From: a virus
Virus record (IMG/VR): IMGVR_UViG_3300043411_001170
Span: 64,001 to 128,000 of that record
Strand: one strand, 5' to 3'
Length of the DNA stretch: 64,000 nucleotides
Shown: piece after piece, positions 3,685-45,783 of the stretch
How positions within the stretch are numbered: position 1 is the first letter of the stretch
Layout: each line of letters opens with the position of its first letter
Notes under the pieces: generated by a model
What the model was told of the DNA's origin: nothing
The model's database searches: none
What the model saw: the letters and a program-made list of their open reading frames with translations, nothing else
Position numbers and translations under genes: made by a program

Positions 3685-3707
3685 CCCCTCCTCATGAGGG
3701 GTTTTTT
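3685..3707 (+). terminator. Intrinsic terminator
   Basis: CCCCTC-ctcat-GAGGGG followed by a T run. Confidence 0.8.
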
Positions 3708-3726: not shown

Positions 3727-5238
3727 ATGGCTTTCGACACTAAATACAGACCTTTAAATTTTAATGACGTTATTGGACAGGACAGTATAGTAAGTACATT
3801 AAAAGGTTTTGTATTATCTAACACAGGATTTAATCAGTCCTATATCATATCGGGACCATATGGTACAGGTAAAACGACATTAGCGCGTATTTTTGCTAGA
3901 GCCTTGTTATGTGAAAGTCCTATTAATGGTGATTGTTGTAATAATTGCAAAAGTTGCAAAAACTTATTGGCTCTTAAAGACGATAGTATTATAGAGATAG
4001 ATGCAGCCACTAATTCTGGAAAAGACGATGTAAAGAAAATAGTAGAAGATTCAATGTATGCCTCGTTTGGAGGAAGAAGGAAAATATTTATTCTTGATGA
4101 GGCTCATCAGTTATCAAAATTTGCGCTTGATGCCCTATTAAAACCATTGGAAGAAGATATACAAGGGACGGAAAATAAAAAGCTCATTTGTATTTTTTGT
4201 ACTACGGAAAGGCAAAAAATAAAGAAAACTATCATGTCTCGGTGTGCGTTGTTTTCTTTGAATCCTGTGTCATGTGACGACATAGCACAGAGGTTATCCT
4301 TTGTTTGTGGGAAAGAAAACATTAACTACGAATTATCTGCTTTAAAATATATAGCTACTAGGTCTGATAAGCATGTTAGAGATGCATTAAAAACATTAGA
4401 AATAATATCAAGCTCTGGTGAGATAACCACCGAACGAGTGAATTTTTATTATGGTGTAGACAAAATTAGCTTGATTGTAGATCTATTGCTACAGATTAAA
4501 ACATCTGTGGATCTAGCGATGCTGAGTAATTTATTAGTCTATTTCTCACCGTTTGATCTATGTGTTCTTTTGTCAAGTATCTCACATCATTCATATATTT
4601 ATTCAAAAACAAAAACAAATCTATCAAAAGAATGCACTGAGAATATTCTTGAAACTATTAACAAAGCCTTTTCGGATAGTGAACTAAAATTCATAATGGA
4701 CTTTTTTAGTCGTAAGAGTAAGACACTTGACGAGACAATATTTATATGTGACTTGTTGACTCTAAAAGACGTTTTCAATGGGACACACGATATTACACCT
4801 GTTTTTCATCAGGTCGTTCCAAGTAAAAGATCAGAATCGGCTATGGTCACACCTTCTATAGCACCTTCTAAAAACACTACCGTTACAATAGCTTTTGATG
4901 ATGCTGATAAATTTAAGGAGCTTGAAGAACAAAAAAAGAATGAGATGATCGGACGCTTGGGTAATATAAAACATAAGGACGAATCATCTGTAGGTCCGAA
5001 TGGTTTGACTAAGAACGGTGTTTATCTCGTACCCGCAGCAGTTAAAAGTAAATCAACCCCCAATAGTTCTAGTATTCCAGTAAAAAAACCGATTATAAAC
5101 GAATCGGTAGGTACAGCTGATAATATAGTCACTAATGATACTAAAAAAACTATACTGAGTCCAGAAGATGTTGTTTCATTAATTAATGATAGGTTTTCGA
5201 AAATATGTCAACAAAAAAAGCCACCGCAAAAAGAGTAA
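3727..5238 (+). CDS. dnaX: DNA polymerase III subunit gamma/tau (clamp loader)
   Basis: KYRP..F.DVIGQ, Walker A GPYGTGKTT, Cys zinc module, IEIDAA, Walker B DEAH, SRC, RDA. Confidence 0.92.
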   Translation: MAFDTKYRPLNFNDVIGQDSIVSTLKGFVLSNTGFNQSYIISGPYGTGKTTLARIFARALLCESPINGDCCNNCKSCKNLLALKDDSIIEIDAATNSGKDDVKKIVEDSMYASFGGRRKIFILDEAHQLSKFALDALLKPLEEDIQGTENKKLICIFCTTERQKIKKTIMSRCALFSLNPVSCDDIAQRLSFVCGKENINYELSALKYIATRSDKHVRDALKTLEIISSSGEITTERVNFYYGVDKISLIVDLLLQIKTSVDLAMLSNLLVYFSPFDLCVLLSSISHHSYIYSKTKTNLSKECTENILETINKAFSDSELKFIMDFFSRKSKTLDETIFICDLLTLKDVFNGTHDITPVFHQVVPSKRSESAMVTPSIAPSKNTTVTIAFDDADKFKELEEQKKNEMIGRLGNIKHKDESSVGPNGLTKNGVYLVPAAVKSKSTPNSSSIPVKKPIINESVGTADNIVTNDTKKTILSPEDVVSLINDRFSKICQQKKPPQKE

Positions 5239-6362
5239 AGTTATCAAAAGATAAGAAAGGTGAGTTGGAGGATTTTTTAGTCAAAGTCGTCTATAAACTA
5301 TCGTCAGGGAAGGATGTGAGATGTAAAGATGTAATGGATGGGATTAAGGATAACCTTAGAAACGATCCCGACCATTTATTCTTACATATTAAAGAACACG
5401 TTGTAAGAACGACCATATTATCCTCTTCTTACTTTGATGCAACGAGAAGAGGGTTTTGGGGTCTTTCAAATACGGGAAAAACTCTTGCAGAAAGTTTAAT
5501 CTATGAAGAAGAATGTGTAGATATTACAGATAGTATTAAAAATTACGGTGTTAGTTCGGATATGGATCTTATTGAAAACACTATATTAAAAAGTATATAC
5601 GTTTTATCCAAACAAATAGAAGGACAGAAAGTAAGAAGTTCCAAAGTCATAAAAGAGGTACAACGTTATAGAGAGGTACTAGACTTAACAAATAAAGATT
5701 TCTGCTTAAATGATGCTTTTATAAAATATGTGGGGATAACGTCAAAGAAGGTGTGGAAACCTTCTTTTGGCTTTTGGGGCTTATCAGAAAGTACCTATAA
5801 AACAGCAGAAAAGAATTTTCCAGATGTTATAAAAGAAAAATATTGGGTTACAGTAGAATTATCTTCTCTTGGGGAGCAAAAATTAGAGGAAGGTGATTTA
5901 GAGAGAATTCTAAGAATTCAATTAAACTCACCAAAAGCAAACTTTTTTATACCATCTGCTAAGTATATGAAAAAGGATGCGTTGAAGTCCGAAATATTTC
6001 ACCTTATTCAAGGTTATATATTTGTATCGTCAGGATTGCCTTTAAGATCCTATTTAGATTTGGAAGATAGTCCTTATGTCAATAGTGTTTTTTACGAAAC
6101 GACTATGGACGGACAAATACACTTAAAGTTACTTCCTAATTCTAAAATAGAGGATATGAAAACTGACCTGGATAAAATGGTACAAGGAAGTATAAAAGAT
6201 GGAGAAACTGTACATATAAATGCAGGATTATATCAACATATAGAAGGAAAAGTACTTTCTATTTTTGAATCCGATGCTTATGTAGAAATAGTATTCAAAT
6301 CGATGATAATTGTAGTTAAGTTACCAAAAATATTTTTAGATCCTATTATGCCTGTTTATTAA
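5205..6362 (+). CDS. NusG/RfaH-family transcription factor (NGN+KOW) fused to two N-terminal winged-helix-like repeats
   Basis: C-half FFIP...IQGYIFV...YVNSV and KOW GETVHINAGLYQHIEGKV; N-half has two repeats ending RRGFWGLS / SFGFWGLS (Mrr_N/HARE-HTH-like). Confidence 0.75.
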   Translation: MSTKKATAKRVKLSKDKKGELEDFLVKVVYKLSSGKDVRCKDVMDGIKDNLRNDPDHLFLHIKEHVVRTTILSSSYFDATRRGFWGLSNTGKTLAESLIYEEECVDITDSIKNYGVSSDMDLIENTILKSIYVLSKQIEGQKVRSSKVIKEVQRYREVLDLTNKDFCLNDAFIKYVGITSKKVWKPSFGFWGLSESTYKTAEKNFPDVIKEKYWVTVELSSLGEQKLEEGDLERILRIQLNSPKANFFIPSAKYMKKDALKSEIFHLIQGYIFVSSGLPLRSYLDLEDSPYVNSVFYETTMDGQIHLKLLPNSKIEDMKTDLDKMVQGSIKDGETVHINAGLYQHIEGKVLSIFESDAYVEIVFKSMIIVVKLPKIFLDPIMPVY

Positions 6363-6374
6363 ATTTGAGGTTAT

Positions 6375-7037
6375 ATGACAAATATATCTAAATTACCATT
6401 AGCACAAATAAGTTCTTTAGAAGAGGTTCAGAATAAGTTTGATTCTGAACCTGGATTACCTGGAATGGCATTTGAAGATTTTGACTTGGAAAAAGAATTT
6501 AGTCTATTGGAACTTGAAATAGAAGGGGAGGAAAGAGAATATCTATTAGATAAAGAAAAAAAATTGGAGAAGTTAAAAGAAATTGTAAATAGACTCCCAA
6601 ATATAGAACACGATTTCATCGACCTTTACTACTTTAAAAGAGTACGACAAGTTAATATTGCAGAAATATTTAAAGTGTCTCAGCCTATGGTGTGTTACAG
6701 ATTAAAGAAAGCTATAGATAGAATAAAATTTCTTCTATCCATGCCTGAACTATCGGAATCTCAAGTAAGAAAAGATTTGCGCGATCATTTCAAGTCTGAA
6801 AAGGATTTAGATATTATAATTCTAATGTATAAGACAACATGTGAATCAAGAACAGCACAAATACTAGGGACCAGCCAGAGTTTTGTACGTCATAGATTTA
6901 TTAGAGCTATTCAGGTATTAGAAGAAGTTAATTCTTATTATCATAATCTCATGAGTAAGATTATGGATAATCTAAATATATTAAAGGATCAAGACGAAGA
7001 AATTATATATATGGTAGATAATAATCAATATTCATAA
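6375..7037 (+). CDS. Protein with two sigma70 region-4-like HTH domains
   Basis: LPNIEHDFIDLYYF...NIAEIFKVSQPMVCYRLKKA and DIIILMY...TAQILGTSQSFVRHRFIRA; no region 2 recognised. Confidence 0.7.
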   Translation: MTNISKLPLAQISSLEEVQNKFDSEPGLPGMAFEDFDLEKEFSLLELEIEGEEREYLLDKEKKLEKLKEIVNRLPNIEHDFIDLYYFKRVRQVNIAEIFKVSQPMVCYRLKKAIDRIKFLLSMPELSESQVRKDLRDHFKSEKDLDIIILMYKTTCESRTAQILGTSQSFVRHRFIRAIQVLEEVNSYYHNLMSKIMDNLNILKDQDEEIIYMVDNNQYS

Positions 7038-7053: not shown

Positions 7054-8508
7054 ATGCTTGATGATATATTAACTTTAGAAGACTTAAAAAATCCACAGGT
7101 GCTACGTTTACTTTTTATGGAAGAGGGAAGGGATTTAGTAGATATCTTTAAGTTATCTTCTTATTTAGAAAACAACATACTAAAGAAAGAAGATAAAAAA
7201 GAACATGGTATTTATTTTACACCGAAGGTTTTAGTAGATCTCATGTTAACGACCATTGATCTTCCTTTAATGGAAGAAGTCTTTAGGGTCATTGACACAT
7301 CCTGTGGAATAGGAAATATCCTTATACCTTTTGCAAGACTCTATGCCAATCATAAGATGATCTATAGTAAGAAGAAAAAGAGAAAAGAGGATTTTCGATT
7401 TTTCTTGAGAAAGGTATATAGTGAATGTATCTTCGGGATTGACTTGAACAATGACTTTATTGACATTATGAAAACAGTAATGTCGGTAGACTGTGGGATT
7501 TCTACAGATAACCTAAATAATTTCATTGTAAACGACTTCTTTAAAGAGAAGAACCCTTTTGGCGGAATTAAATTTAACGTGTTACTAGCAAATCCGCCTT
7601 ATGTAACAGGAATTAAATCTACGGTTGATAGTGAATTAAAAGGCGTTTCCAATTTATCTTTTAACTATCTAATTAAATCAATAGACTTGTTAAAGTCTAA
7701 TTATCAGACAGCATTAGTAATGCCGTCTATATTTCTTAATTCGTTGTCTTTCCTAGAAAAAAGAAAATACTGGATAAAAAATAGAAACTTAAATAAATTA
7801 TGGCTATGCAGTCCAGAATCAAGATTTTTCGGTACGGCTTCTATTAATGTTTGTGTTATCTCACTTAACAGTAGAGTTAATTTAATACCTCAATTTATGA
7901 CTTTTCCTGATAATGGGACATTGGGAGTATTAGAGGGAGATTGTTCAGACTGGTCTACTGCATATTTTAAGAAAATAGATGTTATTAATAAATTGAAAAA
8001 TGAGTATCAAGTAACGGCAGGGATGGTTGTTTCAGAAGCATATCAATGTTTGCCCTATATCACCGATAGTGAGAGTGGTGAGGGGAAGAAAGTTATAACA
8101 TCAGGAATGGTGAAACCTTTTTATTGCTCTTGGGGACAGAAACAAAAGAATATCTTGAAGAAGTCATTTAAGTATCCAAGACTGGAAACAAACATATTAT
8201 TTTCAAAGAGTCTGAATGAAAAAATATTAAGTAAAAGACCTAAACTTGTTATTCCAGGATTAATAATGAAAATTAAAACATTTTTAGACCCTAATGGAGA
8301 ATATTTGCCTGCTGCGGGTACATATGTGATTTATCATAAAACAGATGACATTGATATTTTGAAAAAATTATGTGAATATTTAAATAATGATAAGCGAGTA
8401 CATGATTACTTGATTTCTATACTAGAGACAAAAAGAATAGGACAAGGAGGATACCCTATTACTAAATCCTTTCTGGAAGGAATACCTTTAGAGGGTTATG
8501 ATGACTGA
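7054..8508 (+). CDS. N6-adenine DNA methyltransferase (gamma class, TaqI/Eco57I-like)
   Basis: GIYFTP, IDTSCGIGNIL (motif I), FGIDL, NPPY (motif IV), TaqI-like C-terminal region ending LEGIP. Confidence 0.88.
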   Translation: MLDDILTLEDLKNPQVLRLLFMEEGRDLVDIFKLSSYLENNILKKEDKKEHGIYFTPKVLVDLMLTTIDLPLMEEVFRVIDTSCGIGNILIPFARLYANHKMIYSKKKKRKEDFRFFLRKVYSECIFGIDLNNDFIDIMKTVMSVDCGISTDNLNNFIVNDFFKEKNPFGGIKFNVLLANPPYVTGIKSTVDSELKGVSNLSFNYLIKSIDLLKSNYQTALVMPSIFLNSLSFLEKRKYWIKNRNLNKLWLCSPESRFFGTASINVCVISLNSRVNLIPQFMTFPDNGTLGVLEGDCSDWSTAYFKKIDVINKLKNEYQVTAGMVVSEAYQCLPYITDSESGEGKKVITSGMVKPFYCSWGQKQKNILKKSFKYPRLETNILFSKSLNEKILSKRPKLVIPGLIMKIKTFLDPNGEYLPAAGTYVIYHKTDDIDILKKLCEYLNNDKRVHDYLISILETKRIGQGGYPITKSFLEGIPLEGYDD

Positions 8509-8800
8509 AAACAAACCCTTAAAAGATTTAAGTACTATAAAAGAAATTGCGAAGAAGTGGATAGAGGACAATTCTGTCAATATTTATATTATTAAAATAT
8601 ATAATGATACTAGTAAAAGATCTGTAAACTTGTATACTTATTTATGGAAATTACAGATACAATTTAATAAGAAATATGGCCCCATAAATAGTTTTAGTTA
8701 CGAGTTAGAATTTGATTATGCTTTTATAAAAAGCACCAGTAGGGAAACCATATCTCATCTGAGTAACCTAATGAGTAAGAAAGGGTTTGAAATATCTTAA
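8498..8800 (+). CDS. Hypothetical protein
   Basis: 100-aa ORF overlapping the MTase stop; GAGGG RBS. Confidence 0.6.
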   Translation: MMTENKPLKDLSTIKEIAKKWIEDNSVNIYIIKIYNDTSKRSVNLYTYLWKLQIQFNKKYGPINSFSYELEFDYAFIKSTSRETISHLSNLMSKKGFEIS

Positions 8801-8827
8801 TACTTTTAACTATGAGACTATTTTGAA

Positions 8828-9259
8828 ATGGCTCTGACAAGAACACAATCTGACTACTATTTTACATCGGGAGGAGGAACACAGGTTTACTCCTTTGTGG
8901 TGTCTGTATCTACAACAGGTAGTGTTTTTGTTCGTGACATCCGAACACCTGTTGGTTACTTAGTTAACAGTATGTCTTCTTTACCTTCTTCTGTAGTAGA
9001 TGATATCAATACTGCTATAAACCAAGTGGGGAATTTAATTGTGAATACAAGTGCCATAAATGGAACTGCTAGTTTTGTTAATCAGACACAGGTTATTGTA
9101 TCTTTTCCAACCCCTGTAGCCAACGCAAATTATCGTGTGTTATTTTCCGTTGGTGATTTTGTGTTAGTTCGTTTTGTTCCCCCACTCACTGTAAATGGAT
9201 TTACTATAGAAACTAGCACTGCATTTACTGGAAGTGTTGGTTATGACGTATTATTTTAA
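8828..9259 (+). CDS. Putative virion protein with a C-terminal small beta domain
   Basis: T/S/V-rich; C-terminus VSFPTP..NYRVL...TVNGFTIE...TGSVGY is shared with the next gene. Confidence 0.6.
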   Translation: MALTRTQSDYYFTSGGGTQVYSFVVSVSTTGSVFVRDIRTPVGYLVNSMSSLPSSVVDDINTAINQVGNLIVNTSAINGTASFVNQTQVIVSFPTPVANANYRVLFSVGDFVLVRFVPPLTVNGFTIETSTAFTGSVGYDVLF

Positions 9260-9278
9260 TAATTAAAGAGATTTTAAA

Positions 9279-10454
9279 ATGCCACCACCTCTAAAGGTAG
9301 ATCAAATATCTATAAGTCCTGCTGTTGGTGAAACTTTACTAATAGGGAAAGCCACGGGGGGTAATCTATTATTCTCAGATCAATCTATTCTTTCAGGGAT
9401 TACTTTAAAATCTTTGTCTGGATTAAATTTAACTAATCTAATTACAGTAGGTGTGGGTTCAGGATCTAATTATACAACAATCCAAGCAGCTATAAATGCT
9501 GCACCTACAACGTCTACGGCCACAAATCCAACTCTTATCTGTATTTATTCTGGAACATACAACGAAATTTTAACCGTAGATAAAAATGGACTTGTTTTTG
9601 TCGGGATTGGGAGAGTAGTTATTAACGCTCCTTCTGATTCAGATACTATTTTGATTGAAGAGGGAGTATCTACGGTTCCTTTATTCTGTCATTTTGAAAA
9701 TATTATTTTTGCAAATTCATATGATGCAAGATCTTGTTTTAAGATTTTAGGGGTAGATGGTACAACATTAGGACAAGATATAATTACACTGTCTAATTGT
9801 TATTTTTTGGCAACAGGATTAGGAACTTATTGTCTTAATGCTTCTATCTTAAATTCTTTGAGACTTTTAAATTGTGACTGTTCTGGTAGTATTGTATCTA
9901 CCTCCATATTTATAAGTCAATGTGCTATGTTGGAGGTAATTGGATTATTAAGTGGAACTGATATAGCTCTTAGCTATAATAATACCTCTGATATTCCATC
10001 AATAATTACGTCAACGTATTCTCTATTGGATAGTAGATTCAATAATTTAACTTGTGTTCTTATAGGAGAAGGATTACTATATATGGAAAAACTAGTTACT
10101 AATAATGTGATCTTTGATGGAAATAGAGCATATACACTAATTGACTGTTATGGTGTATTATTACAGCCTAATGGGACAGTGACTGTAAACAGTAAAGGGA
10201 GTTCCTATACACTTAATAATGGAACACCTACAGCTACAGTTGATATTGATAATATTCAAGGATCGGTTTCATTTACCGCAGAGACAACAAAAATTGTAAG
10301 TTTTGAAGTTCCTACATCGAATACTGATTATATGGTTTTAACTTCACATCCTTTTGTCGGAGAAAAAGAAGGTGTCGTTAAAACAGTAAATGGTTTTACG
10401 GTTGAATTTTCTTCAAATCAAACTGGAACTGTTGACTATTTAGTTCGTAGATAA
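9279..10454 (+). CDS. Putative fibre/spike protein with a pectin-lyase-like beta-helix
   Basis: VGVGSGSNYTTIQAAINAA...IYSGTYNE beta-helix cap; same C-terminal domain as 8828-9259. Confidence 0.65.
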   Translation: MPPPLKVDQISISPAVGETLLIGKATGGNLLFSDQSILSGITLKSLSGLNLTNLITVGVGSGSNYTTIQAAINAAPTTSTATNPTLICIYSGTYNEILTVDKNGLVFVGIGRVVINAPSDSDTILIEEGVSTVPLFCHFENIIFANSYDARSCFKILGVDGTTLGQDIITLSNCYFLATGLGTYCLNASILNSLRLLNCDCSGSIVSTSIFISQCAMLEVIGLLSGTDIALSYNNTSDIPSIITSTYSLLDSRFNNLTCVLIGEGLLYMEKLVTNNVIFDGNRAYTLIDCYGVLLQPNGTVTVNSKGSSYTLNNGTPTATVDIDNIQGSVSFTAETTKIVSFEVPTSNTDYMVLTSHPFVGEKEGVVKTVNGFTVEFSSNQTGTVDYLVRR

Positions 10455-10477
10455 ATATAAAAATAATTAAATATATG

Positions 10478-10505
10478 ATCCCCTGATATTATCAGGGGAT
10501 TTTTT
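10478..10505 (+). terminator. Intrinsic terminator
   Basis: ATCCCCTGAT-att-ATCAGGGGAT-TTTTT. Confidence 0.85.
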
Positions 10506-20129: not shown

Positions 20130-21938
20130 ATGGCTGTAGATTTATCGAATATAATGCTCAACATTGGTAGAGCAAGTAAATTTCAAACACAACGATATAC
20201 TATAATTGACTATATAGAGTCTGCTTGGGGTTTAGGCCGTACATTATTCCCTGTACAAAAAGCGATATTAAAAGCTTTTTATGGTCTTCCCTTGGAAAAA
20301 GTACAAAAGAATATACAAATCAGAACGTGGAGAGGGGAAGTAATAAGAAATGTAACTGAGATTGATTATTTTAAAATGCTCTATGACGAGAGAAGATGTA
20401 ATATAGAACATTTTGAGGAAGGAAAAGAAAGAAATCGTTTGATTCTGTCCATTGGTAGACGTTCAGGTAAGTCTACAATGGCATCTTGCATCATGTCTTA
20501 TTCAGTGGACTATTTGTTGGGATTAGAAAATCCACAAAAATATTATGGATTGACAGATTCAAACGTTATTAAAGTTACAGCTGTTGCTACAGATAAAGAT
20601 CAAGCTGCCATTCTATTTAAAGAAGCATCAGCCCACTTTGAATCCTGTCAGAGTTTTAGACCTTTTATAGCAAATGCTACTCAGAGCTTTGTTAACTTCC
20701 AAAGTCCAGAAGATATTAGGAAGTATGGATCTTATCAAGAAAATGGCGTAGGAAAGTCAACAATAGAAATCACTTTTAAATCCGCTGTTGCAAAGGGTTT
20801 ACGTGGATCTGGTAACTTCGTTGTTGTATTAGATGAGATCGCACACTTTTCTGATAATTCAGGAACAGCATCTGGTCAAGCGGTTTATGAAGCCGTCAGC
20901 TTTTCTCAAGCTGCTTTCACACCAAAAGTAGGTATAGAAGCAACTGGAGAACCTGAATATAAGATGGTTATGATTTCTTCTCCGTTAGGAAGAACGGGAT
21001 TTTTCTTTGAACAATTTACATCAGGTTTCTCTGACGAATTTAAAAATGATACTTTATGTATTCAAGCACCTACTTGGGAAGTAAACCCTTCTGTTCCTAC
21101 AACCTTCTTGGTTCAGAAATATAAAGAAGATCCCGTAGTCTTTATGACAGAATGCGGTGCTATATTTACAGATAAGACCCGTGGATTTATCTCAGACGAT
21201 AAAGATCTCCATTTATGTATTGATGCAGCATTAAGACCTACATTTATGGGAAATGCAAGAAGAACTTATTTTTGTGGTATTGACTTAGCATTACAGAAAG
21301 ACCCTTCAGCTATTTGTATCGGGCATCTTGAAGACGATCTTATTGTTGTTGACTTAGTAGAGAGTATCAAAGCAGGTGAAGGGGAATACGTAGATTTAGA
21401 TAGATTGGAAGTAGATATAGTTGCTGATTGGGTTAAAGGAATATTAAAAAAATTCAGATTAAAGAAAGGTGTATTTGACTCTCACATGGGGCCTCCGTTT
21501 GAAAAGGCTTTACATGATAGAGGACTGAGAGATTTGGAATGTAAACACTCTACACAAGCTTGGAACTCAGAAGTTTATAAGACATTTAAGCAGATGCTAT
21601 TAGCTCGTAAGATTAAATTTTATAATTATCCCTTAAATGGACCACAAGAATTTTGTGACTATTTAACAGAAATAAAAGAACTACAAGAGACAAGAGTTTC
21701 TGAAAACGTAATTAAAGTAAGAGCACCTGAAATGCGTGGGAAACATGATGACCGTGCAGACGCTGTTGCTCGTATGGTATGGGTAGCATCCGAATTTTAT
21801 AAAGATGGAAATTTTACTTCAGGATTAACATCAGGAAACGACGCAAGAGTAGATAGAGGACTAGCCAATTACAGAAGGGGGGTAACTGGATTTGGAAGCT
21901 CTCCACTAAGACAAGTAAAGAAACCTTCCAGAAGGTAA
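20130..21938 (+). CDS. terL: Terminase large subunit
   Basis: LFPVQ, Walker A IGRRSGKS, Walker B VVLDEIAH, ISSP coupling motif, RNase H-like GIDLA and HDDRAD. Confidence 0.93.
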   Translation: MAVDLSNIMLNIGRASKFQTQRYTIIDYIESAWGLGRTLFPVQKAILKAFYGLPLEKVQKNIQIRTWRGEVIRNVTEIDYFKMLYDERRCNIEHFEEGKERNRLILSIGRRSGKSTMASCIMSYSVDYLLGLENPQKYYGLTDSNVIKVTAVATDKDQAAILFKEASAHFESCQSFRPFIANATQSFVNFQSPEDIRKYGSYQENGVGKSTIEITFKSAVAKGLRGSGNFVVVLDEIAHFSDNSGTASGQAVYEAVSFSQAAFTPKVGIEATGEPEYKMVMISSPLGRTGFFFEQFTSGFSDEFKNDTLCIQAPTWEVNPSVPTTFLVQKYKEDPVVFMTECGAIFTDKTRGFISDDKDLHLCIDAALRPTFMGNARRTYFCGIDLALQKDPSAICIGHLEDDLIVVDLVESIKAGEGEYVDLDRLEVDIVADWVKGILKKFRLKKGVFDSHMGPPFEKALHDRGLRDLECKHSTQAWNSEVYKTFKQMLLARKIKFYNYPLNGPQEFCDYLTEIKELQETRVSENVIKVRAPEMRGKHDDRADAVARMVWVASEFYKDGNFTSGLTSGNDARVDRGLANYRRGVTGFGSSPLRQVKKPSRR

Positions 21939-21941
21939 AAA

Positions 21942-22196
21942 ATGTTAGATAATATTCGATCAGACTATATTATAATGTTAAAAATGATACGCTCCTCTTG
22001 CCCTAAACTTAAAGCAACTGACAAAGAACTCAATGGTCTTAGTGAGTTGTTCATGAGATTAGGAGGTTCTTGGGTACGTGTTTTTAATGGATCTAACGAA
22101 GATTTATACTATTTGCGAAAATTAATCAAAAACTATAGTAAAGTAAAGGGAGCTTTTATTAAAGGCATTCGCAAAAAAAGAAGATCCAGGATTTAA
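21942..22196 (+). CDS. Hypothetical basic protein
   Basis: 84-aa ORF between TerL and portal. Confidence 0.6.
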   Translation: MLDNIRSDYIIMLKMIRSSCPKLKATDKELNGLSELFMRLGGSWVRVFNGSNEDLYYLRKLIKNYSKVKGAFIKGIRKKRRSRI

Positions 22197-22218
22197 TGAT
22201 ATTTTATAAGGTTTATAT

Positions 22219-22686
22219 ATGGCCATAGGAAAAATAGAAAAAGTAGCTAAAACATTAGGTATTCGTGGTTTTATAAGACCTAAAAATATTAAAGTTTTGG
22301 ACGAGACTCAGTTATCCTTTTTTGATTCTTGTGTAAGACAATTAAAAGAATTAAATGCTCAGGTACTTATTAAAATAAGATCGTTAGACAACTATACAAG
22401 AGATAAAAAGTACGAAGTATTAAGAAAAATAAATAAATTTGAAAATATTTTCCGTGGTGTCCGTAGTTATGTAGAGCATTATAATAATGTAGAAAGTTCG
22501 CTAGAAGTTGTAAAGTCTATTAGTGCAAATTTTACAGAAATCTATAATTTATTAGAACAGTCTAAAAAGAAATTACTAGATATCCAGAAAACAGATATTA
22601 TACTTTATAAGAAAATTGAAAAAGACATAGAAATTTTAAATAAAATAATTAAAGATACTAAAAAAATTGATGGTGAGGAGCGTTAA
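22219..22686 (+). CDS. Hypothetical coiled-coil protein
   Basis: 155 aa, helical; N-terminal KVAK. Confidence 0.6.
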   Translation: MAIGKIEKVAKTLGIRGFIRPKNIKVLDETQLSFFDSCVRQLKELNAQVLIKIRSLDNYTRDKKYEVLRKINKFENIFRGVRSYVEHYNNVESSLEVVKSISANFTEIYNLLEQSKKKLLDIQKTDIILYKKIEKDIEILNKIIKDTKKIDGEER

Positions 22687-22688
22687 TT

Positions 22689-24494
22689 ATGACAGTTTTA
22701 CCTACAGGAACAGCGGGAGAAAGCAAGGTAGTTGCAACTATTAACGGTATAAGTAAAACTGCCAATACTAATGGTGTAGCTGGATCTGTTAGGGTAGGGA
22801 AGCCTGATAAAATATTAGAATCGAAGATGCATTCTAAATTTGCAACCATAGGAGCAGGTGGAGGAGGAAGTGGTTATGGTGGTATGTATGGTGCTGGATT
22901 CGGAAATTTATCAGGATCAGTGTCTTGGGGTAATGCAATTAATCCATATAGCCCAGAACTATCTACTGACTTTTTAGAATTACCAAACTCTCAGCAAGAA
23001 TTAAGAAATACTTGTAGATTTTTCTACGATAATGATGCCATTGTCGGACAAGCCATTGACTCCTTAACTGATATACCTCTCTTAAAGGTAAGAGTAGGGA
23101 TGCCAGAGGCTTTAAATGTAGAATTAGCGCGCAAAGCTATGAGATTTTGCGAGCGGTGGGTAAGATCCCAAAATTTATTAGAAAAATTAATTTGGATATT
23201 ACACGAAATTAACTTATTCGGTGAAGCTTTTATTTGGGTAGAAGATTCAGATAAAGAACTACCTCAAGATTTACTTTACGAAGAGATTGAAGAAATTCGT
23301 GAAAACGGTGAAAAAGTAACAATTAGGAATTTAAAGAATAACGCCAACGAGCTTCACGTTTCTTGGTTAAGAAAAAATTATAAGGGATGGACTAATCTTA
23401 CTGTATTACCTCCTCACCAAGTAAGAATGGAATCTTTTCCTTTTACGAGAAGAAGTCAGTTTGAATTTATTCCTGACTCAAAAGCAAGAAATGTAGTGTC
23501 ATTAGCTGAAAGCGGAGATACTTATGCCTCCAGAGTAGTTAATGATATGCCGAGAGAAATAGTAGAGTCCATAAGAAGTGGTAGGAACATACCTCTCAAT
23601 ACAGACCCTGATGCTGGGTCTTTCTGCTTTTATATGGCAAGAAAAAGAAGTGCCTATGCAGAAAGAGGAAAGTCAATAATCCAAAGAATTATTCGTCCTC
23701 TTACACATAGAGACAAATTAAGACAGGCTCAAGCATCTATTGCTTCAAGACATATGACTCCTATGCGTGTTATTCAAGCAGAAGGAGCAAGTGATGCTGA
23801 CTTAGATGTATTGAGAGAACACGTAGATCATGCTTTGTCTGATCCCGATTTTACAATTATTGTAAACTATGTAATAAATTGGGAGGAAATGAATTCAAAT
23901 GGAAGACTCCTAGATTTGGATTCTGAATATACGATGGCAGAAAGGCAGATGTACATTGGTCTGGGTGTTACTGAGTCTTTATTAAATGGAGAATCTTCTT
24001 ATCAAGAAAATAGTCTGTCCACACAATTATTATCTGCTAAATTTATGCATGTTCGGATGATGCTACAACACTTTGTAGAGCAGTATATCTTTCGTCCTAT
24101 GTGTGCTCGTATGGGATTTATTGAAGAAGATGAGGATGGACAAGAACATATTATCACACCAACACTTATGTTTAATCGTATGACTTGGAGAGATTCTCCT
24201 GATACAGCACAACAATTAATCACGTTATTTGAACGTGGTGCAGTAGATATTGACACCATACATGAATATTTCAATCTCGATACTCAAACAACGGTAGAGA
24301 GAATGAATAATAATATGTATACAATAAAAGATCCGTTCTTAGCTGAAGCATTGAGATCAATGGCATCTTCTATTGGATCTGTCATGGCCGAAAAGACAAA
24401 TGCTTTGGATAAATACTCTAAAGCAGCCCTATTGTCTATTCTTGCTGATAGCGTAGATCCACGATTTGCCCCACCACCGGGCGGCGGTCTATAA
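22689..24494 (+). CDS. Portal protein
   Basis: Between TerL and protease; RFFYDNDAIVGQAID, LFGEAF, RGKSII, LGVTESLL.G typical of portals. Confidence 0.8.
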   Translation: MTVLPTGTAGESKVVATINGISKTANTNGVAGSVRVGKPDKILESKMHSKFATIGAGGGGSGYGGMYGAGFGNLSGSVSWGNAINPYSPELSTDFLELPNSQQELRNTCRFFYDNDAIVGQAIDSLTDIPLLKVRVGMPEALNVELARKAMRFCERWVRSQNLLEKLIWILHEINLFGEAFIWVEDSDKELPQDLLYEEIEEIRENGEKVTIRNLKNNANELHVSWLRKNYKGWTNLTVLPPHQVRMESFPFTRRSQFEFIPDSKARNVVSLAESGDTYASRVVNDMPREIVESIRSGRNIPLNTDPDAGSFCFYMARKRSAYAERGKSIIQRIIRPLTHRDKLRQAQASIASRHMTPMRVIQAEGASDADLDVLREHVDHALSDPDFTIIVNYVINWEEMNSNGRLLDLDSEYTMAERQMYIGLGVTESLLNGESSYQENSLSTQLLSAKFMHVRMMLQHFVEQYIFRPMCARMGFIEEDEDGQEHIITPTLMFNRMTWRDSPDTAQQLITLFERGAVDIDTIHEYFNLDTQTTVERMNNNMYTIKDPFLAEALRSMASSIGSVMAEKTNALDKYSKAALLSILADSVDPRFAPPPGGGL

Positions 24495-24584
24495 AAATAA
24501 TGCGCTATTAGCTCTATAATACTTTAATATAGATACTATCTATTGTGAGATACCTTTATATTCAGCATCTAATGGTACTAAACT

Positions 24585-26012
24585 ATGATTATTAAAAGAG
24601 CTAGAGCGAAGGGGTTTTCGCCCGACGTACAAATAAAAAAATGGTCAGGAATCCCAAATGTAAAAACAGCTTCTGTTTCTACGAAGGATATTACTAGACA
24701 AGCCTCTGAGATTTTAAATGATTACTGTGATCCAGAGAATTATTTATTCTCGCACGTCACTGTAGTCTGTTCTGTAGATACTAATCCTATGGATGTTCAG
24801 ATTGGCCCCAATGTCGTAAATGAAGGGCTAGTTATAAATCGTAAGTATAAAGAATACGATATCCAAGCTAACTGTCAGAAATTTATAAATAATAATAAAG
24901 ATGCATGGGAACGAGATCTCCTATTACAATGCTATAAAACATTCGTTGGTGCCCATAATTTCTGCGAGCACCTGCAAATTGAAGAACAAAGCAAGGGTAA
25001 AATCGTAGATGCAGTAGCCAGAGATATCGGTGAAAGTGTTTATGTAGATATTTTAATTGCTACAGCGAAAAAACATACAGAACTTATTAAAGCTATCAAA
25101 GAAAGAAGAATTAATGCTGTCTCTATGGGATGCTCTGTATTAGAGACACAGTGTACAAAGTGTGGAAATACATCTCCTGATGAAGCCCATATGTGCCGAC
25201 ACATCACAATGATGAAAGGCCAGAAGTTTGAGGGTCCAGATGGAAAGGAGAGAATGATAGCTGAACTGTGTGGAAATAAGGCTATGGAGCCACATGGGGG
25301 AGTTAGATTTATAGAAGCATCTTGGGTAAAGGTTCCTGCATTTAAGGGTGCAGTTCTTCGTAATATTATAGATCTGTCAGAAATTAATGGAGACAGATTA
25401 AAGAAAGTAGCATCTGATTTAAAAATGTTGAAAAATCCGACATGGAATCCCGCAGATACTTCTAGAATTGTTAACTCATTAGTTTTGAATGGTATGATGA
25501 AATTAGCAGCAGCAGAGGATGAAGGTTTTTCACCTGCACAAACAGAAATTTCGGATGGTGAAGAAAATCCATTGGAATCATTAGAAAGAGAAATGATGAA
25601 GGTCGTTATTAAGAATGTAAAGTCAAAATTAATGGATGTTTTAAGTCCTCCAAAAGATACAAATTATTCTACTCTCGTCACTCCAATGGGGAGTAATAAT
25701 AATATCGTAAGAGTAGGATCTGAGATAGATGAATTAGAGTCATTGTATAATTCTGGATTATCAGCCATCACAAATTTATGCAAAACAAATAAATCTAGAA
25801 TCAGATACTCTAAAATCTACAATGACTATTTCGGAATACATATTCCAAAATGGATTTATGTTGCTTGTAATAAGCTGGGACCGTTAGTTCGTTATACAAG
25901 TCCTATGTCATATATCTCAGTATGCGAAAAAGTATTAAATAGGAGACTATCAATAGATGAAATTGATGCCCTGTTAAAAATATCGTCTATTCTTCGGGAA
26001 GACATCTATTAA
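24585..26012 (+). CDS. Prohead maturation protease (HK97/herpes-like fold) with inserted Zn-finger
   Basis: FCEH..SKGKIVDA, VSMGC..CTKCG..C.H, FIEASWVKVPAF. Confidence 0.8.
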   Translation: MIIKRARAKGFSPDVQIKKWSGIPNVKTASVSTKDITRQASEILNDYCDPENYLFSHVTVVCSVDTNPMDVQIGPNVVNEGLVINRKYKEYDIQANCQKFINNNKDAWERDLLLQCYKTFVGAHNFCEHLQIEEQSKGKIVDAVARDIGESVYVDILIATAKKHTELIKAIKERRINAVSMGCSVLETQCTKCGNTSPDEAHMCRHITMMKGQKFEGPDGKERMIAELCGNKAMEPHGGVRFIEASWVKVPAFKGAVLRNIIDLSEINGDRLKKVASDLKMLKNPTWNPADTSRIVNSLVLNGMMKLAAAEDEGFSPAQTEISDGEENPLESLEREMMKVVIKNVKSKLMDVLSPPKDTNYSTLVTPMGSNNNIVRVGSEIDELESLYNSGLSAITNLCKTNKSRIRYSKIYNDYFGIHIPKWIYVACNKLGPLVRYTSPMSYISVCEKVLNRRLSIDEIDALLKISSILREDIY

Positions 26013-27335: not shown

Positions 27336-27385
27336 TCGATATTAGGTGTAAAAATTAGGTTCTTAGGACATTATTAATAATTGAG

Positions 27386-27422
27386 AAAGGGAAGGCTAAA
27401 AACCTTCCCTTTTTTATTTTTT
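27386..27422 (+). terminator. Intrinsic terminator
   Basis: AAAGGGAAGG-ctaaaaa-CCTTCCCTTT plus T run. Confidence 0.85.
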
Positions 27423-29392: not shown

Positions 29393-29435
29393 AAAATACC
29401 GAAGATTCCGAAAGGATCTTCGGTATTTTATTTTT
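29393..29435 (+). terminator. Intrinsic terminator (with a separate hairpin at 29328-29349)
   Basis: AAAATACCGAAGATTCC-gaaa-GGATCTTCGGTATTTT; upstream CCTAGAATC-tcaa-GATTCTAGG. Confidence 0.85.
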
Positions 29436-30133: not shown

Positions 30134-30170
30134 AAGACGTTGGATTTTAAAATCCAACGTCTTTTATTTT
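30134..30170 (+). terminator. Intrinsic terminator (30-bp perfect palindrome)
   Basis: AAGACGTTGGATTTTAAAATCCAACGTCTT followed by TTATTTT. Confidence 0.75.
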
Positions 30171-40701: not shown

Positions 40702-40734
40702 ATAAGCCCGCTATTTTGAGCGGGCTTATTTTTT
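40702..40734 (+). terminator. Intrinsic terminator
   Basis: ATAAGCCCGCT-loop-AGCGGGCTTAT plus T run. Confidence 0.85.
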
Positions 40735-40740
40735 GAGGGA

Positions 40741-41133
40741 TTGTCTATGAAAAGTCAGTTAGAAATATTTAAGATTATATTAACAAAAGACGTAACACAG
40801 ATAATTACAGAGTTGTATAAATTACAATTATATGTAAAACGAATTTTACAACTCATAGAAAATTTAGACGAGAAAGAAAAAGAAAAAATATATCAAGTCG
40901 CAGGTGATCTTGTAGATGCCGTACCAAATTCCTTAAGGAAGATGGATATCTTACTTTCTAAGATACTATACGCCTTAAATATAATTTGGAGGAAAGAATT
41001 AAAAGTGTCTCTTCCGTTTGATGAAAGGTCAGAAGTTGAAAATTTAATCACTCCGTCCAAGGAAGTAGACATAGGAAAGATTAAGAAGACAGCGAAAAAA
41101 ATTGCGAACCTGTTAATTAATCGTGGCAAATAA
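40741..41133 (+). CDS. Hypothetical helical protein
   Basis: 130 aa; C-terminal KKTAKKIAN. Confidence 0.6.
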   Translation: MSMKSQLEIFKIILTKDVTQIITELYKLQLYVKRILQLIENLDEKEKEKIYQVAGDLVDAVPNSLRKMDILLSKILYALNIIWRKELKVSLPFDERSEVENLITPSKEVDIGKIKKTAKKIANLLINRGK

Positions 41134-41145
41134 GAGGATCGAGAG

Positions 41146-42435: not shown

Positions 42436-42440
42436 TTAGT

Positions 42441-42833
42441 ATGCCTACATATTCTTATAATTGTGATGTGTGTGAAATTGATTTTGATGCTGTCAATCGG
42501 ATTACGGAGTCAGATAAAAAAGAAAAATGTCCTAAATGTGGAAAGTTAGAATGTCCAAGAATTTTCACACCTAATGGAAATTTTATCTTAAAAGGTTCTG
42601 GATGGCCAAGTAAGGCTATGTCTATAAATAAGCAAATGACGACTGCAAATAATGAAAATAAATATAAACAACAGCAATATAAATCTATGGTTCCTACTTT
42701 AGTTCCAAATGTAGAGGGTGAAAGAGTAGAATCTTGGTCTGATGCTCAAAAATTAGCAAAAGAAAAGGGCCATGATACCTCTTCTTATGAGCCTGCCGTT
42801 CAAAAAGAACAATCTAAAAAAATCGTAACTTAA
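42441..42833 (+). CDS. FmdB-family zinc-ribbon protein
   Basis: MPTYSYNCDVC...CPKCG...FILKGSGW. Confidence 0.85.
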   Translation: MPTYSYNCDVCEIDFDAVNRITESDKKEKCPKCGKLECPRIFTPNGNFILKGSGWPSKAMSINKQMTTANNENKYKQQQYKSMVPTLVPNVEGERVESWSDAQKLAKEKGHDTSSYEPAVQKEQSKKIVT

Positions 42834-42859
42834 TATTTATTGGTATAGACGAGGTTTTT

Positions 42860-43552
42860 ATGCATTTACGAGAGAGAAAAAAGAATTATATTTACATTTT
42901 AGTCCCTGCAATGGAAAACGTTATAGGATGGAGAATATTAGCTCACCGAACTCTAACGTTATGCCATACTACTCCTGTTAATATTGGTGAATATCGGATA
43001 GATCAGGGATTTATTTCTAGCTCTATGCGTAAATATAGTCGGGGTTTTGAAGGTACAAACCTGACAAAAGGTTATTCAAGAATTCTTATTAATATAGAAG
43101 ATCCAGAAATTTCTCAAGGTAGAGCAGAAATTCCTCTCGATGACAAATACTTATTTTTAAAGTTACAACCATTAATGTCTACAACAGGAACATACGCTAC
43201 TTATTTTACAAATATCTTAATTATCCCTACGGTAGAAACTTTTAGTAGAGAATTACCTTATATTATGGTTGGTGGCTCGGCTCCAGGAATTACGGCAGTA
43301 GCAGATGTACCTCCTTCTGAAAGCTTTATGAAGGTGTCATTACCTAGACAATCTATTTTCTTTTCTGTGTCCAATTCATCAACAACAGAACCTCTTTTAG
43401 TTTCTTTTGATAAAGGTGCTCCAGCAGTATCTCTCCCTCCAGGGTATGAGTCCAGTACAACAGACGCTGGTGTATCTGATTTTTATGTTGCATCTACAAC
43501 AGGTAATACAGTTCCTTTCATTGTAAACGCTTCAATGAGAGGAGTTCGATAA
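42860..43552 (+). CDS. Putative virion structural protein
   Basis: 230 aa beta-rich, GAGGT RBS. Confidence 0.55.
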   Translation: MHLRERKKNYIYILVPAMENVIGWRILAHRTLTLCHTTPVNIGEYRIDQGFISSSMRKYSRGFEGTNLTKGYSRILINIEDPEISQGRAEIPLDDKYLFLKLQPLMSTTGTYATYFTNILIIPTVETFSRELPYIMVGGSAPGITAVADVPPSESFMKVSLPRQSIFFSVSNSSTTEPLLVSFDKGAPAVSLPPGYESSTTDAGVSDFYVASTTGNTVPFIVNASMRGVR

Positions 43553-45770: not shown

Positions 45771-45783
45771 TTATGGTGTTAAC

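What the first reader, a model, noticed from the sequence alone, without database searches (positions are those of the whole stretch)
5205..7037. Candidate phage late-transcription/antitermination system: winged-helix-NusG fusion plus tandem sigma-4 protein
Seen: a NusG/RfaH NGN+KOW module preceded by two Mrr_N/HARE-like winged-helix repeats (..GFWGLS..), next to a protein made of two sigma70 region-4 HTHs with no region 2. These sit just upstream of a >55-kb co-oriented structural region that contains at least eight strong intrinsic terminators. Established: RfaH/LoaP-type NusG paralogs antiterminate long operons. Inference: the wHTH repeats recruit the NusG paralog by DNA binding and the sigma-4 protein redirects host RNAP to late promoters. 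I do not know this architecture as a described system.
Basis: partly seen in the sequence, partly recalled or inferred. Interest (0 to 1): 0.78.

Follow-up and report, generated by a model that had tools for sequence, protein, structure and literature searches.

The report
Huge-phage NusG-like plus tandem sigma-4 gene pair
Two neighbouring phage genes encode a NusG-type RNA polymerase elongation factor with extra winged-helix domains and a protein made of two sigma region-4 domains; this pair sits between the replication genes and the virion genes in every related huge-phage locus examined, so it probably helps switch the host polymerase to late genes.

Summary
ORF A (5205-6362, 385 aa) has two homologous winged-helix repeats followed by an NGN+KOW module of the NusG/Spt5 type. 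ORF B (6375-7037, 220 aa) has an acidic tail followed by two tandem sigma region-4 helix-turn-helix domains and no region 2. Terminase, portal and protease genes lie downstream. Nine intergenic terminator-like hairpins lie on the + strand.

- The conserved unit is clamp loader, then NGN-KOW protein, then tandem sigma-4 protein, then virion genes. It was found in 80 of 80 and 43 of 43 related viral loci.
- The double winged helix occurs only in the window's near relatives (0 of 80 loci). A single copy of the same domain recurs in other branches.
- The terminators are not conserved at the matching places in relatives.
- No phage RNA polymerase and no region-2 sigma was found in four large relatives.
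- A complex prediction for the two proteins gave only weak support (0.57, best control 0.09).

Best reading, confidence about 0.5: a factor pair that acts on host RNA polymerase to express late genes. Antitermination is plausible but untested. I found no paper describing it.

The parts
3685..3707 (+). Terminator-like hairpin (6 pairs, 5 G-C) with a T run. It ends about 20 bases before the clamp loader start codon.
3727..5238 (+). Clamp loader (AAA+, DNA_pol3_delta2). First gene of the packed unit. Its end overlaps the start of ORF A by 34 bases.
   Evidence: Pfam 8.5e-28, phrog_5846 2.3e-63. Lies upstream of the NGN gene in 80 of 80 and 43 of 43 loci.
5205..6362 (+). ORF A, 385 aa: winged helix, winged helix, NGN, KOW.
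5244..5525 (+). ORF A winged-helix repeat 1 (aa 14-107). Ends in RRGFWGLSNTG.
   Evidence: VIA-align Z 8-9.7 to MarR, PadR, F93 and ORC winged helices. Homologous to repeat 2.
5553..5822 (+). ORF A winged-helix repeat 2 (aa 117-206). Ends in SFGFWGLSES.
   Evidence: 2obp_B Z 7.8. hhalign against repeat 1: probability 86.6%, E 4.5e-6.
5835..6176 (+). ORF A NGN domain (aa 211-324), with W214, G223-E224 and the G270-Y271-x-F273 motif.
   Evidence: (E. coli NusG NGN 6vz7_AB Z 9.0; RfaH 8pen_P Z 8.5)
6186..6347 (+). ORF A KOW domain (aa 328-381), modelled as a beta barrel.
   Evidence: 2xhc_A Z 9.8, rmsd 1.2; 5ohq_A Z 9.4
6375..7037 (+). ORF B, 220 aa: acidic low-confidence N-terminus, two tandem sigma region-4 domains, short conserved C-terminal tail. 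GAGG lies 5 bases before the ATG.
6522..6746 (+). ORF B sigma-4 domain 1 (aa 50-124). Its recognition helix VSQPxVCYRL is almost invariant across the family.
   Evidence: Pfam Sigma70_r4 7e-8. FliA Z 9.6, SigF Z 8.9. Profile against SigF region 4: 4.5e-6. Invariant columns.
6756..6968 (+). ORF B sigma-4 domain 2 (aa 128-198).
   Evidence: hhalign against domain 1: probability 95.8%, E 7.3e-9. NCBIfam SigE-family region 4 at aa 147-184, 6.5e-5. Orthologues hit Sigma70_r4 twice in the same reading frame.
7054..8508 (+). N6-adenine DNA methyltransferase. An insertion specific to this lineage, between ORF B and the conserved downstream genes.
   Evidence: Pfam N6_Mtase 1.2e-10. Found in 0 of 80 related loci.
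8498..10454 (+). Three conserved downstream genes of unknown function: p100 (8498-8800), p143 (8828-9259) and p391 (9279-10454).
   Evidence: p143 and p391 homologues follow the sigma-4 gene in most related loci. No PHROG hit for p143 or p391; p100 was not scanned.
10477..10501 (+). Strong terminator-like hairpin (11 pairs) with a T run, 11 bases before the listed GTG start (10513) of the next gene; a later in-frame ATG, read by eye at about 10522, would make it about 20.
20130..26012 (+). Packaging and head genes: terminase large subunit 20130-21938, portal 22689-24494, head protease 24585-26012.
   Evidence: PHROGs 2.6e-24, 3.6e-25 and 1.8e-10
27382..27416 (+). Terminator-like hairpin (14 pairs) after the acidic-repeat gene 26094-27335.
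29393..29429 (+). Terminator-like hairpin (16 pairs).
30134..30163 (+). Terminator-like hairpin (13 pairs).
40702..54137 (+). Four further intergenic terminator-like hairpins: 40702-40729, 44522-44547, 45738-45767 and 54108-54137.
   Evidence: sequences visible

Best explanation
ORF A and ORF B are a conserved pair of phage transcription factors that act on the host RNA polymerase.

ORF A is a NusG/Spt5-family elongation factor. By analogy with NusG and RfaH (recalled knowledge), its NGN domain would sit on the beta-prime clamp helices of the elongating polymerase, and its KOW domain would be free to hold a partner.

ORF B is not a sigma factor. It has two sigma region-4 helix-turn-helix domains. 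In real sigma factors (recalled knowledge) this domain binds the beta flap tip and double-stranded promoter DNA.

The two genes are co-transcribed with the clamp loader, at the junction between the replication/recombination genes and the virion genes. This order held in every related huge-phage locus examined. These phages show no polymerase of their own and no region-2 sigma.

I infer that, once replication genes are expressed, the pair converts host polymerase into a form that transcribes the long virion gene block. ORF B would give promoter or flap contacts, and ORF A would give processivity: resistance to pausing, to Rho and possibly to hairpin terminators.

In the window's own branch, ORF A has gained two winged-helix domains that probably tether it to DNA or to another protein.

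Shown here: the domain identities, the strict synteny and the restriction to phages.
Inferred: polymerase binding, late-gene specificity, antitermination, and contact between the two proteins.
For: Domain identities.

Synteny.
- The order clamp loader, NGN-KOW, tandem sigma-4, p143/p391 holds in 80 of 80 viral loci found with the ORF B profile (67 are non-redundant).
- It also holds in 43 of 43 loci found with an NGN profile. By my reading of the two tables, 12 of these lie on contigs not in the first set.
- The same order is seen in LR745208.1.

Position: upstream in the same record lie a helicase, RuvC, UvsX, SbcD, exonucleases and the sliding clamp. Downstream lie terminase, portal and protease.

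No competing phage machinery.
- Pfam RNA polymerase families PF00562 and PF00623 were found in 0 of 5 records, including two that are at least 92% complete.
- Sigma70_r2 gave only three sub-cut-off hits. The three ORFs behind them give 0 Pfam families at E<=0.01.

Constraint: ORF B keeps 40-50% identity, with an almost invariant recognition helix, across phages whose loci range from 42 to 68% G+C (window about 33%).

Restriction to phages: only 5 matches, all on metagenome-assembled (MAG) contigs, in one genome for each of 185,579 prokaryote species.

Read-through in the window: the hairpins at 3685 and 10477 end about 11-25 bases before the next start codon. That leaves no room for a promoter behind them, so the downstream genes need read-through.

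Pair contact: complex prediction gave weak support. Score 0.57 (runs 0.57, 0.57, 0.60), best of 3 controls 0.09, partner pLDDT at least 82, runs agreeing in 100% of contacts. The mark was reached by 58 of 80 solved complexes and 2 of 110 mismatched pairs. At 0.60 or under it was reached by only 7 of the 80 solved complexes and by both mismatches that passed.
Against: - No experiment and no RNA data bear on this.
- ORF A is far below the NCBIfam cut-offs for NusG, UpxY and LoaP (16-22 bits against 100-136). RNA polymerase binding is inferred from fold only.
- Terminators are not conserved at the matching positions in relatives: 3 of 67 and 0 of 49. A strong hairpin upstream of the clamp loader occurs in only 11 of 67 loci, against 3 of 67 in a control stretch inside the gene.
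- No shared promoter-like or ops-like motif was found in the window's 21 intergenic regions above shuffled controls, and no intergenic repeat family was found.
- Some family members are fused to a 5'-3' exonuclease, and the gene is coupled to the clamp loader. Both could point to a role at replication forks rather than in transcription.
- The complex score is of the kind the tool itself calls more often wrong than right unless the guess was likely beforehand.
- The host is unknown.
Confidence: 0.5

Rival explanations
1. The winged-helix repeats bind phage DNA sites and load the NusG paralogue onto polymerase, as ops does for RfaH. This makes polymerase read through the intrinsic terminators at 10477, 27382, 29393 and others. 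The sigma-4 protein redirects polymerase to late promoters.
For: - The winged-helix fold is supported.
- The same winged-helix domain, with the G-x-W-G-L-T/S motif, recurs as a single N-terminal copy in other family members: P0012, P0022, P0027, P0121, P0125 and P0054. P0022 against repeat 1 gives probability 78.9%, E 1.6e-5, 77 columns. The combination has therefore been kept or gained more than once.
- There are nine intergenic + strand hairpin terminators. Two of them leave no room for a promoter before the next gene.
Against: - Most family members have no winged helix. By my reading of the list, 19 of 153 listed representatives have an NGN match that starts more than 50 residues in with a full NGN-KOW after it (23 rows in all; 4 are match fragments), 4 of them the window's own group. 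The double winged-helix profile was found in 0 of 80 loci. Recruitment by winged helices therefore cannot be the general mechanism.
- No repeated candidate binding site was found.
- Terminators are not conserved in relatives.
- Winged helices can also bind proteins. By recall, the HARE-type domain of the Gram-positive delta subunit binds polymerase.
Confidence: 0.2
2. Two independent factors that merely share an operon. ORF B would be an ordinary sequence-specific helix-turn-helix activator or repressor. ORF A would be a NusG competitor that shields phage transcripts from Rho-dependent silencing. They would form no joint complex.
For: - Sigma-4-like domains are closely related to the GerE/LuxR and KorA DNA-binding domains seen in the fold lists.
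- Relatives carry further tandem sigma-4 proteins elsewhere in their genomes. This looks like a family of regulators.
- By recall, RfaH works largely by excluding NusG and so blocking Rho.
- The complex prediction is only weak.
Against: - Strict adjacency in 80 of 80 and 43 of 43 loci, across very divergent phages, is more than operon sharing usually gives.
- The complex score of 0.57 stands well above the controls at 0.09.
Confidence: 0.17
3. A role in replication or repair rather than transcription. The NGN-KOW and sigma-4 proteins would be accessory subunits or clients of the clamp loader and sliding clamp machinery.
For: - The gene always follows the clamp loader and here overlaps its end.
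- One branch fuses NGN-KOW to a 5'-3' flap exonuclease. P0126 and P0138 carry Pfam 5_3_exonuc_N at 1.8e-27 and 3.2e-32. Six loci have an NGN reading frame (stop to stop) of about 600-670 codons.
- The sliding clamp gene lies about 4.6 kb upstream.
Against: - By recall, NGN and sigma-4 domains are known only as RNA polymerase partners.
- The family profile aligns over the full length of bacterial NusG.
- No known clamp loader uses such subunits.
Confidence: 0.08

Closest known systems
Specialised NusG paralogues (RfaH, LoaP, UpxY)
   Same: NGN+KOW architecture. The gene lies next to the long operon it would serve. Weak best NCBIfam similarity to UpxY (1.3e-4) and LoaP (4.9e-4). A foreign, mobile-element context. 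Expected action: riding with elongating polymerase to suppress pausing and termination.
   Different: Scores are far below the family cut-offs (22 against 100 bits; 20.3 against 125). It is phage-encoded. It is always paired with a tandem sigma-4 protein and a clamp loader. It carries N-terminal winged-helix domains in some branches and a flap exonuclease in another. No ops-like or leader element was found. The KOW domain is modelled as a beta barrel, not as an RfaH-type helical hairpin.
Housekeeping bacterial NusG
   Same: The family profile aligns end to end with B. subtilis and T. maritima NusG, including the W-x-V...G-x-E and G-Y-x-F motifs.
   Different: TIGR00922 gives 16.1 bits against a cut-off of 135.7. 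About 16-19% identity in the structural alignments. Extra domains are present.
Sigma-70 family factors (FliA, SigF, ECF)
   Same: Domain 1 of ORF B is a typical region 4.
   Different: No region 2 or region 3. Region 4 is duplicated in tandem and packed into one body (pLDDT above 90 for aa 60-200). It therefore cannot by itself melt a promoter as a sigma factor does.
T4 late transcription set: gp55, gp33, gp45 clamp and gp44/62 clamp loader
   Same: Phage-made small proteins take over the two main sigma docking sites on host core polymerase, and the genes lie beside clamp and clamp loader genes. According to passages of PMC7824862, gp33 is a helix-turn-helix protein that binds the flap domain as sigma does. 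The rest is recalled.
   Different: No sequence match to gp55 or gp33 was seen in the PHROG hits of ORF B. Here an NGN domain would stand where gp55 (region-2-like) stands. Clamp binding was not tested.
Lambdoid Q antiterminators and other flap-binding phage antiterminators
   Same: A weak, sub-threshold match of ORF B domain 1 to Phage_antitermQ (E 0.059) and to phrog_79 'Q-like' (0.0026). By recall, these are phage proteins that bind the flap region and make polymerase terminator-resistant.
   Different: The similarity is confined to the helix-turn-helix. There is no Q-family membership. The architecture differs.
Phage proteins annotated NusG or RfaH in sequence databases
   Same: In BFVD, 6 viral proteins match the model at E<=0.001. 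They include 'RfaH, transcriptional activator RfaH' and 'NusG Transcription antiterminator' from uncultured Caudovirales phages. JGI names P0003 'transcription antitermination factor NusG'. A Helicobacter prophage paper mentions a NusG-like gene (one passage of PMC11321410).
   Different: These are automatic names or passing mentions. None of the texts I searched describes the pairing, the fusions or a test of function.

Membership tests
NusG/Spt5 superfamily | N-terminal NGN domain (alpha/beta fold with the hydrophobic G-Y-x-F patch) | tested here: met
   Family profile against NusG chains, E 7.8e-9, full length. 30 of 61 members hit Pfam NusG. VIA-align: NusG NGN 6vz7_AB Z 9.0, RfaH 8pen_P Z 8.5. 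G270, Y271 and F273 are invariant or nearly invariant.
NusG/Spt5 superfamily | C-terminal KOW beta barrel | tested here: met
   23 of 61 members hit Pfam KOW. Spt5 KOW E 1.1e-13. 2xhc_A Z 9.8, rmsd 1.2 over 54 residues.
NusG/Spt5 superfamily | Binds the clamp helices of a multisubunit RNA polymerase | not testable with these tools
   The host is unknown and no polymerase sequence is at hand.
RfaH / LoaP / UpxY (specialised NusG paralogues) | Sequence membership (NCBIfam curated cut-off) | tested here: not met
   UpxY 22 bits against 100. LoaP 20.3 against 125. nusG 16.1 against 135.7.
RfaH / LoaP / UpxY (specialised NusG paralogues) | Encoded beside the long operon it controls | tested here: met
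   Lies immediately upstream of the virion gene block in the window and in all related loci. That this block is its target is an inference.
RfaH / LoaP / UpxY (specialised NusG paralogues) | A specific recruitment element (ops-type DNA or leader RNA) in the target operon | tested here: inconclusive
   No k-mer in the 21 intergenic regions exceeded shuffled controls. No intergenic repeat family was found. These are crude methods, and one site would be enough.
Sigma-70 family sigma factor | Region 4 (helix-turn-helix that binds the -35 element and the flap) | tested here: met
   Pfam Sigma70_r4 7e-8, 32.3 bits against a cut-off of 24.1. FliA Z 9.6.
Sigma-70 family sigma factor | Region 2 (core binding, -10 recognition and DNA melting) | tested here: not met
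   No Sigma70_r2 hit at E<=1. All NCBIfam sigma alignments cover only the C-terminal part of the models. The part before region 4 is about 50 acidic residues with pLDDT below 50.
HARE-HTH / Mrr_N winged helix | Winged helix-turn-helix fold | tested here: met
   Topology helix, helix, helix, beta hairpin in both repeats. Z 8-9.7 to many winged-helix proteins. Z in this range is called middling by the tool.
HARE-HTH / Mrr_N winged helix | Sequence membership in Pfam PF14338 or PF05066 | tested here: inconclusive
   No hit for the window protein or for either repeat alone at E<=10. One hit in P0003 to Mrr_N, E 0.039, 14.5 bits against a cut-off of 29.5, over the wing only. None in 8 other members with N-terminal extensions. 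I could not run a profile-to-profile comparison with these Pfam families.
Lambdoid Q antiterminator (PF06530) | Sequence membership | tested here: not met
   13.7 bits against a cut-off of 26, E 0.059, over the helix-turn-helix only.

The most novel reading that the evidence does not exclude
The pair is a split stand-in for sigma that ties late transcription to replication, with the logic of T4 but built from different parts.

- The NGN domain would take the beta-prime clamp-helix site that sigma region 2 (or T4 gp55) uses, and would hold the non-template strand.
- The tandem sigma-4 protein would take the flap site that sigma region 4 (or T4 gp33) uses.
- One of the conserved disordered tails of ORF B (family consensus F-x-S-I-F-T-x-P-D-E at the N-terminal side; a hydrophobic x-V-x-D tail at the very C-terminus) would bind the phage sliding clamp, which is loaded by the clamp loader encoded immediately upstream.

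This would make an elongation-factor fold act in initiation. It would also explain three observations: these huge phages have no region-2 sigma, the gene order is invariant, and one branch fuses the NGN-KOW protein to a flap exonuclease that works at clamp-loading sites.
Probability: 0.1. Interest if true: 0.9.

Novelty: new variant of a known kind. Interest (0 to 1): 0.66.

Why it matters
Most huge phages that lack their own RNA polymerase are assumed to steer the host enzyme with sigma factors. In the clade studied here I found no region-2 sigma in the large relatives searched. Instead there is an invariant pair: a NusG-type factor and a tandem sigma-4 protein, placed exactly where replication genes give way to virion genes.

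NusG/Spt5 is the only transcription factor shared by all cellular life. As far as my searches reach, phage-encoded versions have names in databases but no described function.

If the pair works as proposed, it gives a defined two-protein handle on late gene control in a large and ecologically widespread group of uncultured phages. It also gives natural examples of NGN-KOW modules joined to DNA-binding or nuclease domains.

Tried and rejected
- RNA evidence: the look-up of sequencing runs listed 6 runs from 5 studies, and no RNA holder was listed.
- Promoter search: sigma-70-like sites are not enriched. 80 were found against 86.3 +/- 8.9 in shuffles, and 64 against 73.5 +/- 9.5.
- k-mers of 8-10 bases with one mismatch, in 21 intergenic regions, did not exceed shuffles. 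Three long gaps that may hide small genes were left out of this count.
- Direct repeats in the window are coding repeats only.
- Upstream regions in relatives are mostly coding, so footprinting by eye gave nothing.
- The N-terminal half of ORF A found only its own 3 close homologues in the 5.8-billion-protein search.
- The protein Atlas search with aa 10-108 gave only unnamed clusters at 0.88 or below, which the tool rates as a lead at most.
- PDB sequence search with the single protein gave 0 matches.
- Pfam gave nothing for the N-terminal extensions of 8 other family members.
- The first attempt to fetch loci with the 61-sequence NGN alignment failed because no stretch was conserved enough. 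A 12-sequence alignment worked.
- PF00940 (single-subunit polymerase) matched nowhere, not even in the control genomes, so that search is uninformative.
- The three weak Sigma70_r2 places in relatives gave 0 Pfam families when the whole ORFs were scanned. I reject them as sigma factors.
- Host inference: the 5 matches in prokaryote genome bins come from unrelated phyla and look like mis-binned phage contigs. No host is proposed.
- Literature: 0 papers hold 'NusG' with 'huge phages', 0 hold 'NusG' with 'megaphage', and 0 hold 'phage-encoded NusG'. 'NusG homolog' with 'phage genome' gave only the NusG review.
- In the passages found, the jumbo-phage comparative paper PMC7824862 has no Spt5, KOW, antitermination or HARE term. 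The huge-phage paper PMC7162821 and the review PMC13282480 have no antitermination term.
- Supplementary tables were closed. Supplementary Table 6 of PMC7162821, which lists transcription and translation genes, may name such proteins.

Full report
**Setting.** The window is bases 64001-128000 of a 137,687-base viral record. CheckV rates the record 31% complete, which by my arithmetic implies a genome of roughly 440 kb. Related records are 372-618 kb. The window has about 30-42% G+C. Almost every gene of the record is on the + strand.

**The observation.** ORF A (5205-6362, 385 aa) and ORF B (6375-7037, 220 aa) are real open frames, 12 bases apart. GAGG lies 5 bases before the ORF B start.

*ORF A, C-terminal half.*
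- ORF A alone gives no Pfam or PDB sequence hit.
- An exhaustive HMMER search found 208 representative proteins at E<=0.001. Of the 150 listed, all but one match only aa ~185-385. Most are free-standing proteins of 170-190 aa.
- A profile of 61 of them aligns over its full length with B. subtilis NusG (E 7.8e-9) and T. maritima NusG, and with Spt5 KOW domains.
- 30 of 61 members hit Pfam NusG and 23 of 61 hit KOW.
- The AlphaFold model (pLDDT 89.5) has NusG, RfaH and Spt5 as its best PDB matches.

*ORF A, N-terminal half.*
- It folds as two helix-helix-helix-hairpin units.
- Unit 1 aligns with many winged-helix proteins at Z 8-9.7, and unit 2 at Z 7.8.
- The two units are homologous (probability 86.6%, E 4.5e-6).
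- The Mrr_N/HARE label has only one sub-threshold hit, in a homologue, behind it.

*ORF B.*
- Its first helix-turn-helix is a standard sigma region 4.
- Its second is a diverged copy of the first (probability 95.8%, E 7.3e-9). It also hits region 4 of a SigE model.
- There is no region 2.

**Surroundings.**
- Immediately upstream is a clamp loader gene, which ORF A overlaps by 34 bases.
- Further upstream in the record lie a helicase, RuvC, UvsX, SbcD, exonucleases and the sliding clamp.
- Downstream come a methyltransferase, three conserved genes of unknown function, and then terminase, portal and head protease.
- Terminator-like hairpins are about twice as frequent as in shuffles. My stricter scan gives 13 on the + strand, 9 of them intergenic.
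- The hairpins at 3685 and 10477 end about 11-25 bases before the next start codon. The genes behind them must therefore be reached by read-through.

**Comparison with relatives.**
- With the ORF B profile I fetched 80 viral loci. All 80 have the order clamp loader, NGN-KOW gene, tandem sigma-4 gene on one strand. Most continue with homologues of p143, p391, p221 and p497.
- With an NGN profile I fetched 43 loci. All 43 have the clamp loader before and the sigma-4 gene after.
- The 485-kb phage LR745208.1 has the same order.
- The double winged-helix profile and the methyltransferase were each found in 0 of 80 loci. Full-length homologues of ORF A number only four.
- A single copy of the same winged helix, with the same G-x-W-G-L-T/S wing motif, heads the NGN-KOW protein in several other family members.
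- Another branch carries a 5'-3' flap exonuclease at the C-terminus.
- The NGN-KOW core therefore accepts various nucleic-acid-handling add-ons, and the window's architecture is one lineage's version.

**What the relatives do not share.**
- Under my criteria, terminators occur upstream of the clamp loader in 3 of 67 non-redundant loci, and after the p391 homologue in 0 of 49.
- Strong hairpins upstream of the clamp loader occur in 11 of 67 loci, against 3 of 67 for a control stretch.
- The relatives are G+C-rich (42-68%), so T-tail criteria may under-call. Even so, the comparison gives no support for a fixed terminator partner.

**Machinery in the clade.**
- Five records were searched, including one 100% and one 92% complete.
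- None has Pfam matches to the large polymerase subunits.
- The Sigma70_r2 matches are all below cut-off, and the ORFs behind them show no Pfam family.
- Region 4 is found in all five. It occurs twice within the ORF B orthologues, and also in further tandem sigma-4 proteins elsewhere in the genomes.
- The ORF B family is nearly confined to viral contigs: 5 matches, all on MAG contigs, in one genome for each of 185,579 species.

**Mechanism.**
The following is recalled knowledge, not tested here:
- NGN domains bind the beta-prime clamp helices and compete there with sigma region 2.
- Sigma region 4 binds the flap tip.
- Phage proteins that hold the flap can make polymerase ignore hairpins.
- RfaH-type factors block Rho by excluding NusG.

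On that basis, and given the strict pairing, I propose that the two proteins act together on host polymerase to express the virion genes. The one complex prediction gave weak support: 0.57 against 0.09 for the best of 3 controls, partner pLDDT at least 82, and runs agreeing in 100% of contacts. The mark was reached by 58 of 80 solved complexes and 2 of 110 mismatched pairs. At 0.60 or under it was reached by only 7 of the 80 solved complexes and by both mismatches that passed. I give this reading 0.5.

The rivals:
- Two independent factors sharing an operon (0.17).
- A replication role (0.08).

The boldest reading not excluded is a split sigma surrogate coupled to the sliding clamp, as in T4 late transcription (0.1).

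**Novelty.**
- Phage proteins named NusG or RfaH exist in databases, and one prophage paper mentions one in passing.
- None of my searches found a description of the pair, the fusions or any test of function (passages read).
- Supplementary tables were closed and may list such genes.
- I rate this a new variant of a known kind: a NusG paralogue with new partners and add-ons.

Noticed in passing
L001:4212-6098 (LR745208.1); also L019, L021, L025, L033, L034, L065, L079, L049: The clamp loader of several relatives is interrupted or lengthened. In L001 about 125 extra residues sit right after the Walker B 'FDE', beginning with C and ending in HNFFV...SN-C. By eye this looks like an intein. Other loci give two separate clamp loader matches about 1 kb apart.
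   Followed up: partly
window:7054-8508: An N6-adenine DNA methyltransferase (N6_Mtase, Eco57I-like) is inserted between the sigma-4 gene and the conserved downstream genes. It is absent from all 80 related loci.
   Followed up: partly
L119, L121-L125; P0126, P0138, P0145, P0146: One branch fuses the NGN-KOW protein to a 5'-3' flap exonuclease, giving about 600-620 aa. It is still followed by the tandem sigma-4 gene.
   Followed up: partly
L135:495-1157 (G002) and L136:87-893 (LR745208.1): Relatives carry further sigma region-4 proteins far from the NusG-like gene: the G002 one has two region-4 matches in Pfam; the LR745208.1 one has a single match there and a second, weak one (E 0.009) only in the genome search. 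None was seen in the part of the window's own genome that is held.
   Followed up: partly
window:26094-27335: This gene encodes a long Asp/Glu-rich repeat region, seen as 20 overlapping GAT/GAA-rich repeat copies. It is followed by one of the strongest terminator hairpins. A scaffold-like protein is my guess.
   Followed up: no
window:43732-45679: Two neighbouring genes (43732-44406 and 44653-45678) share three stretches of 72-75% DNA identity, which indicates a local duplication.
   Followed up: no
window:8828-10454: The p143 and p391 proteins share a domain: p391 as a query also hits the p143 homologues in many loci. Neither has a PHROG match.
   Followed up: no
window:58702-63999: A very long open frame, at least 1766 aa, runs off the end of the window.
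   Followed up: no
whole window compared with L003-L082: The window has about 33% G+C, whereas the related loci have 42-68%. The window's lineage is a compositional outlier in its clade.
   Followed up: no
window:3070-3654: A 'putative phage metallopeptidase' gene (PF18894, 1.6e-16) precedes the clamp loader here and in most related loci.
   Followed up: no
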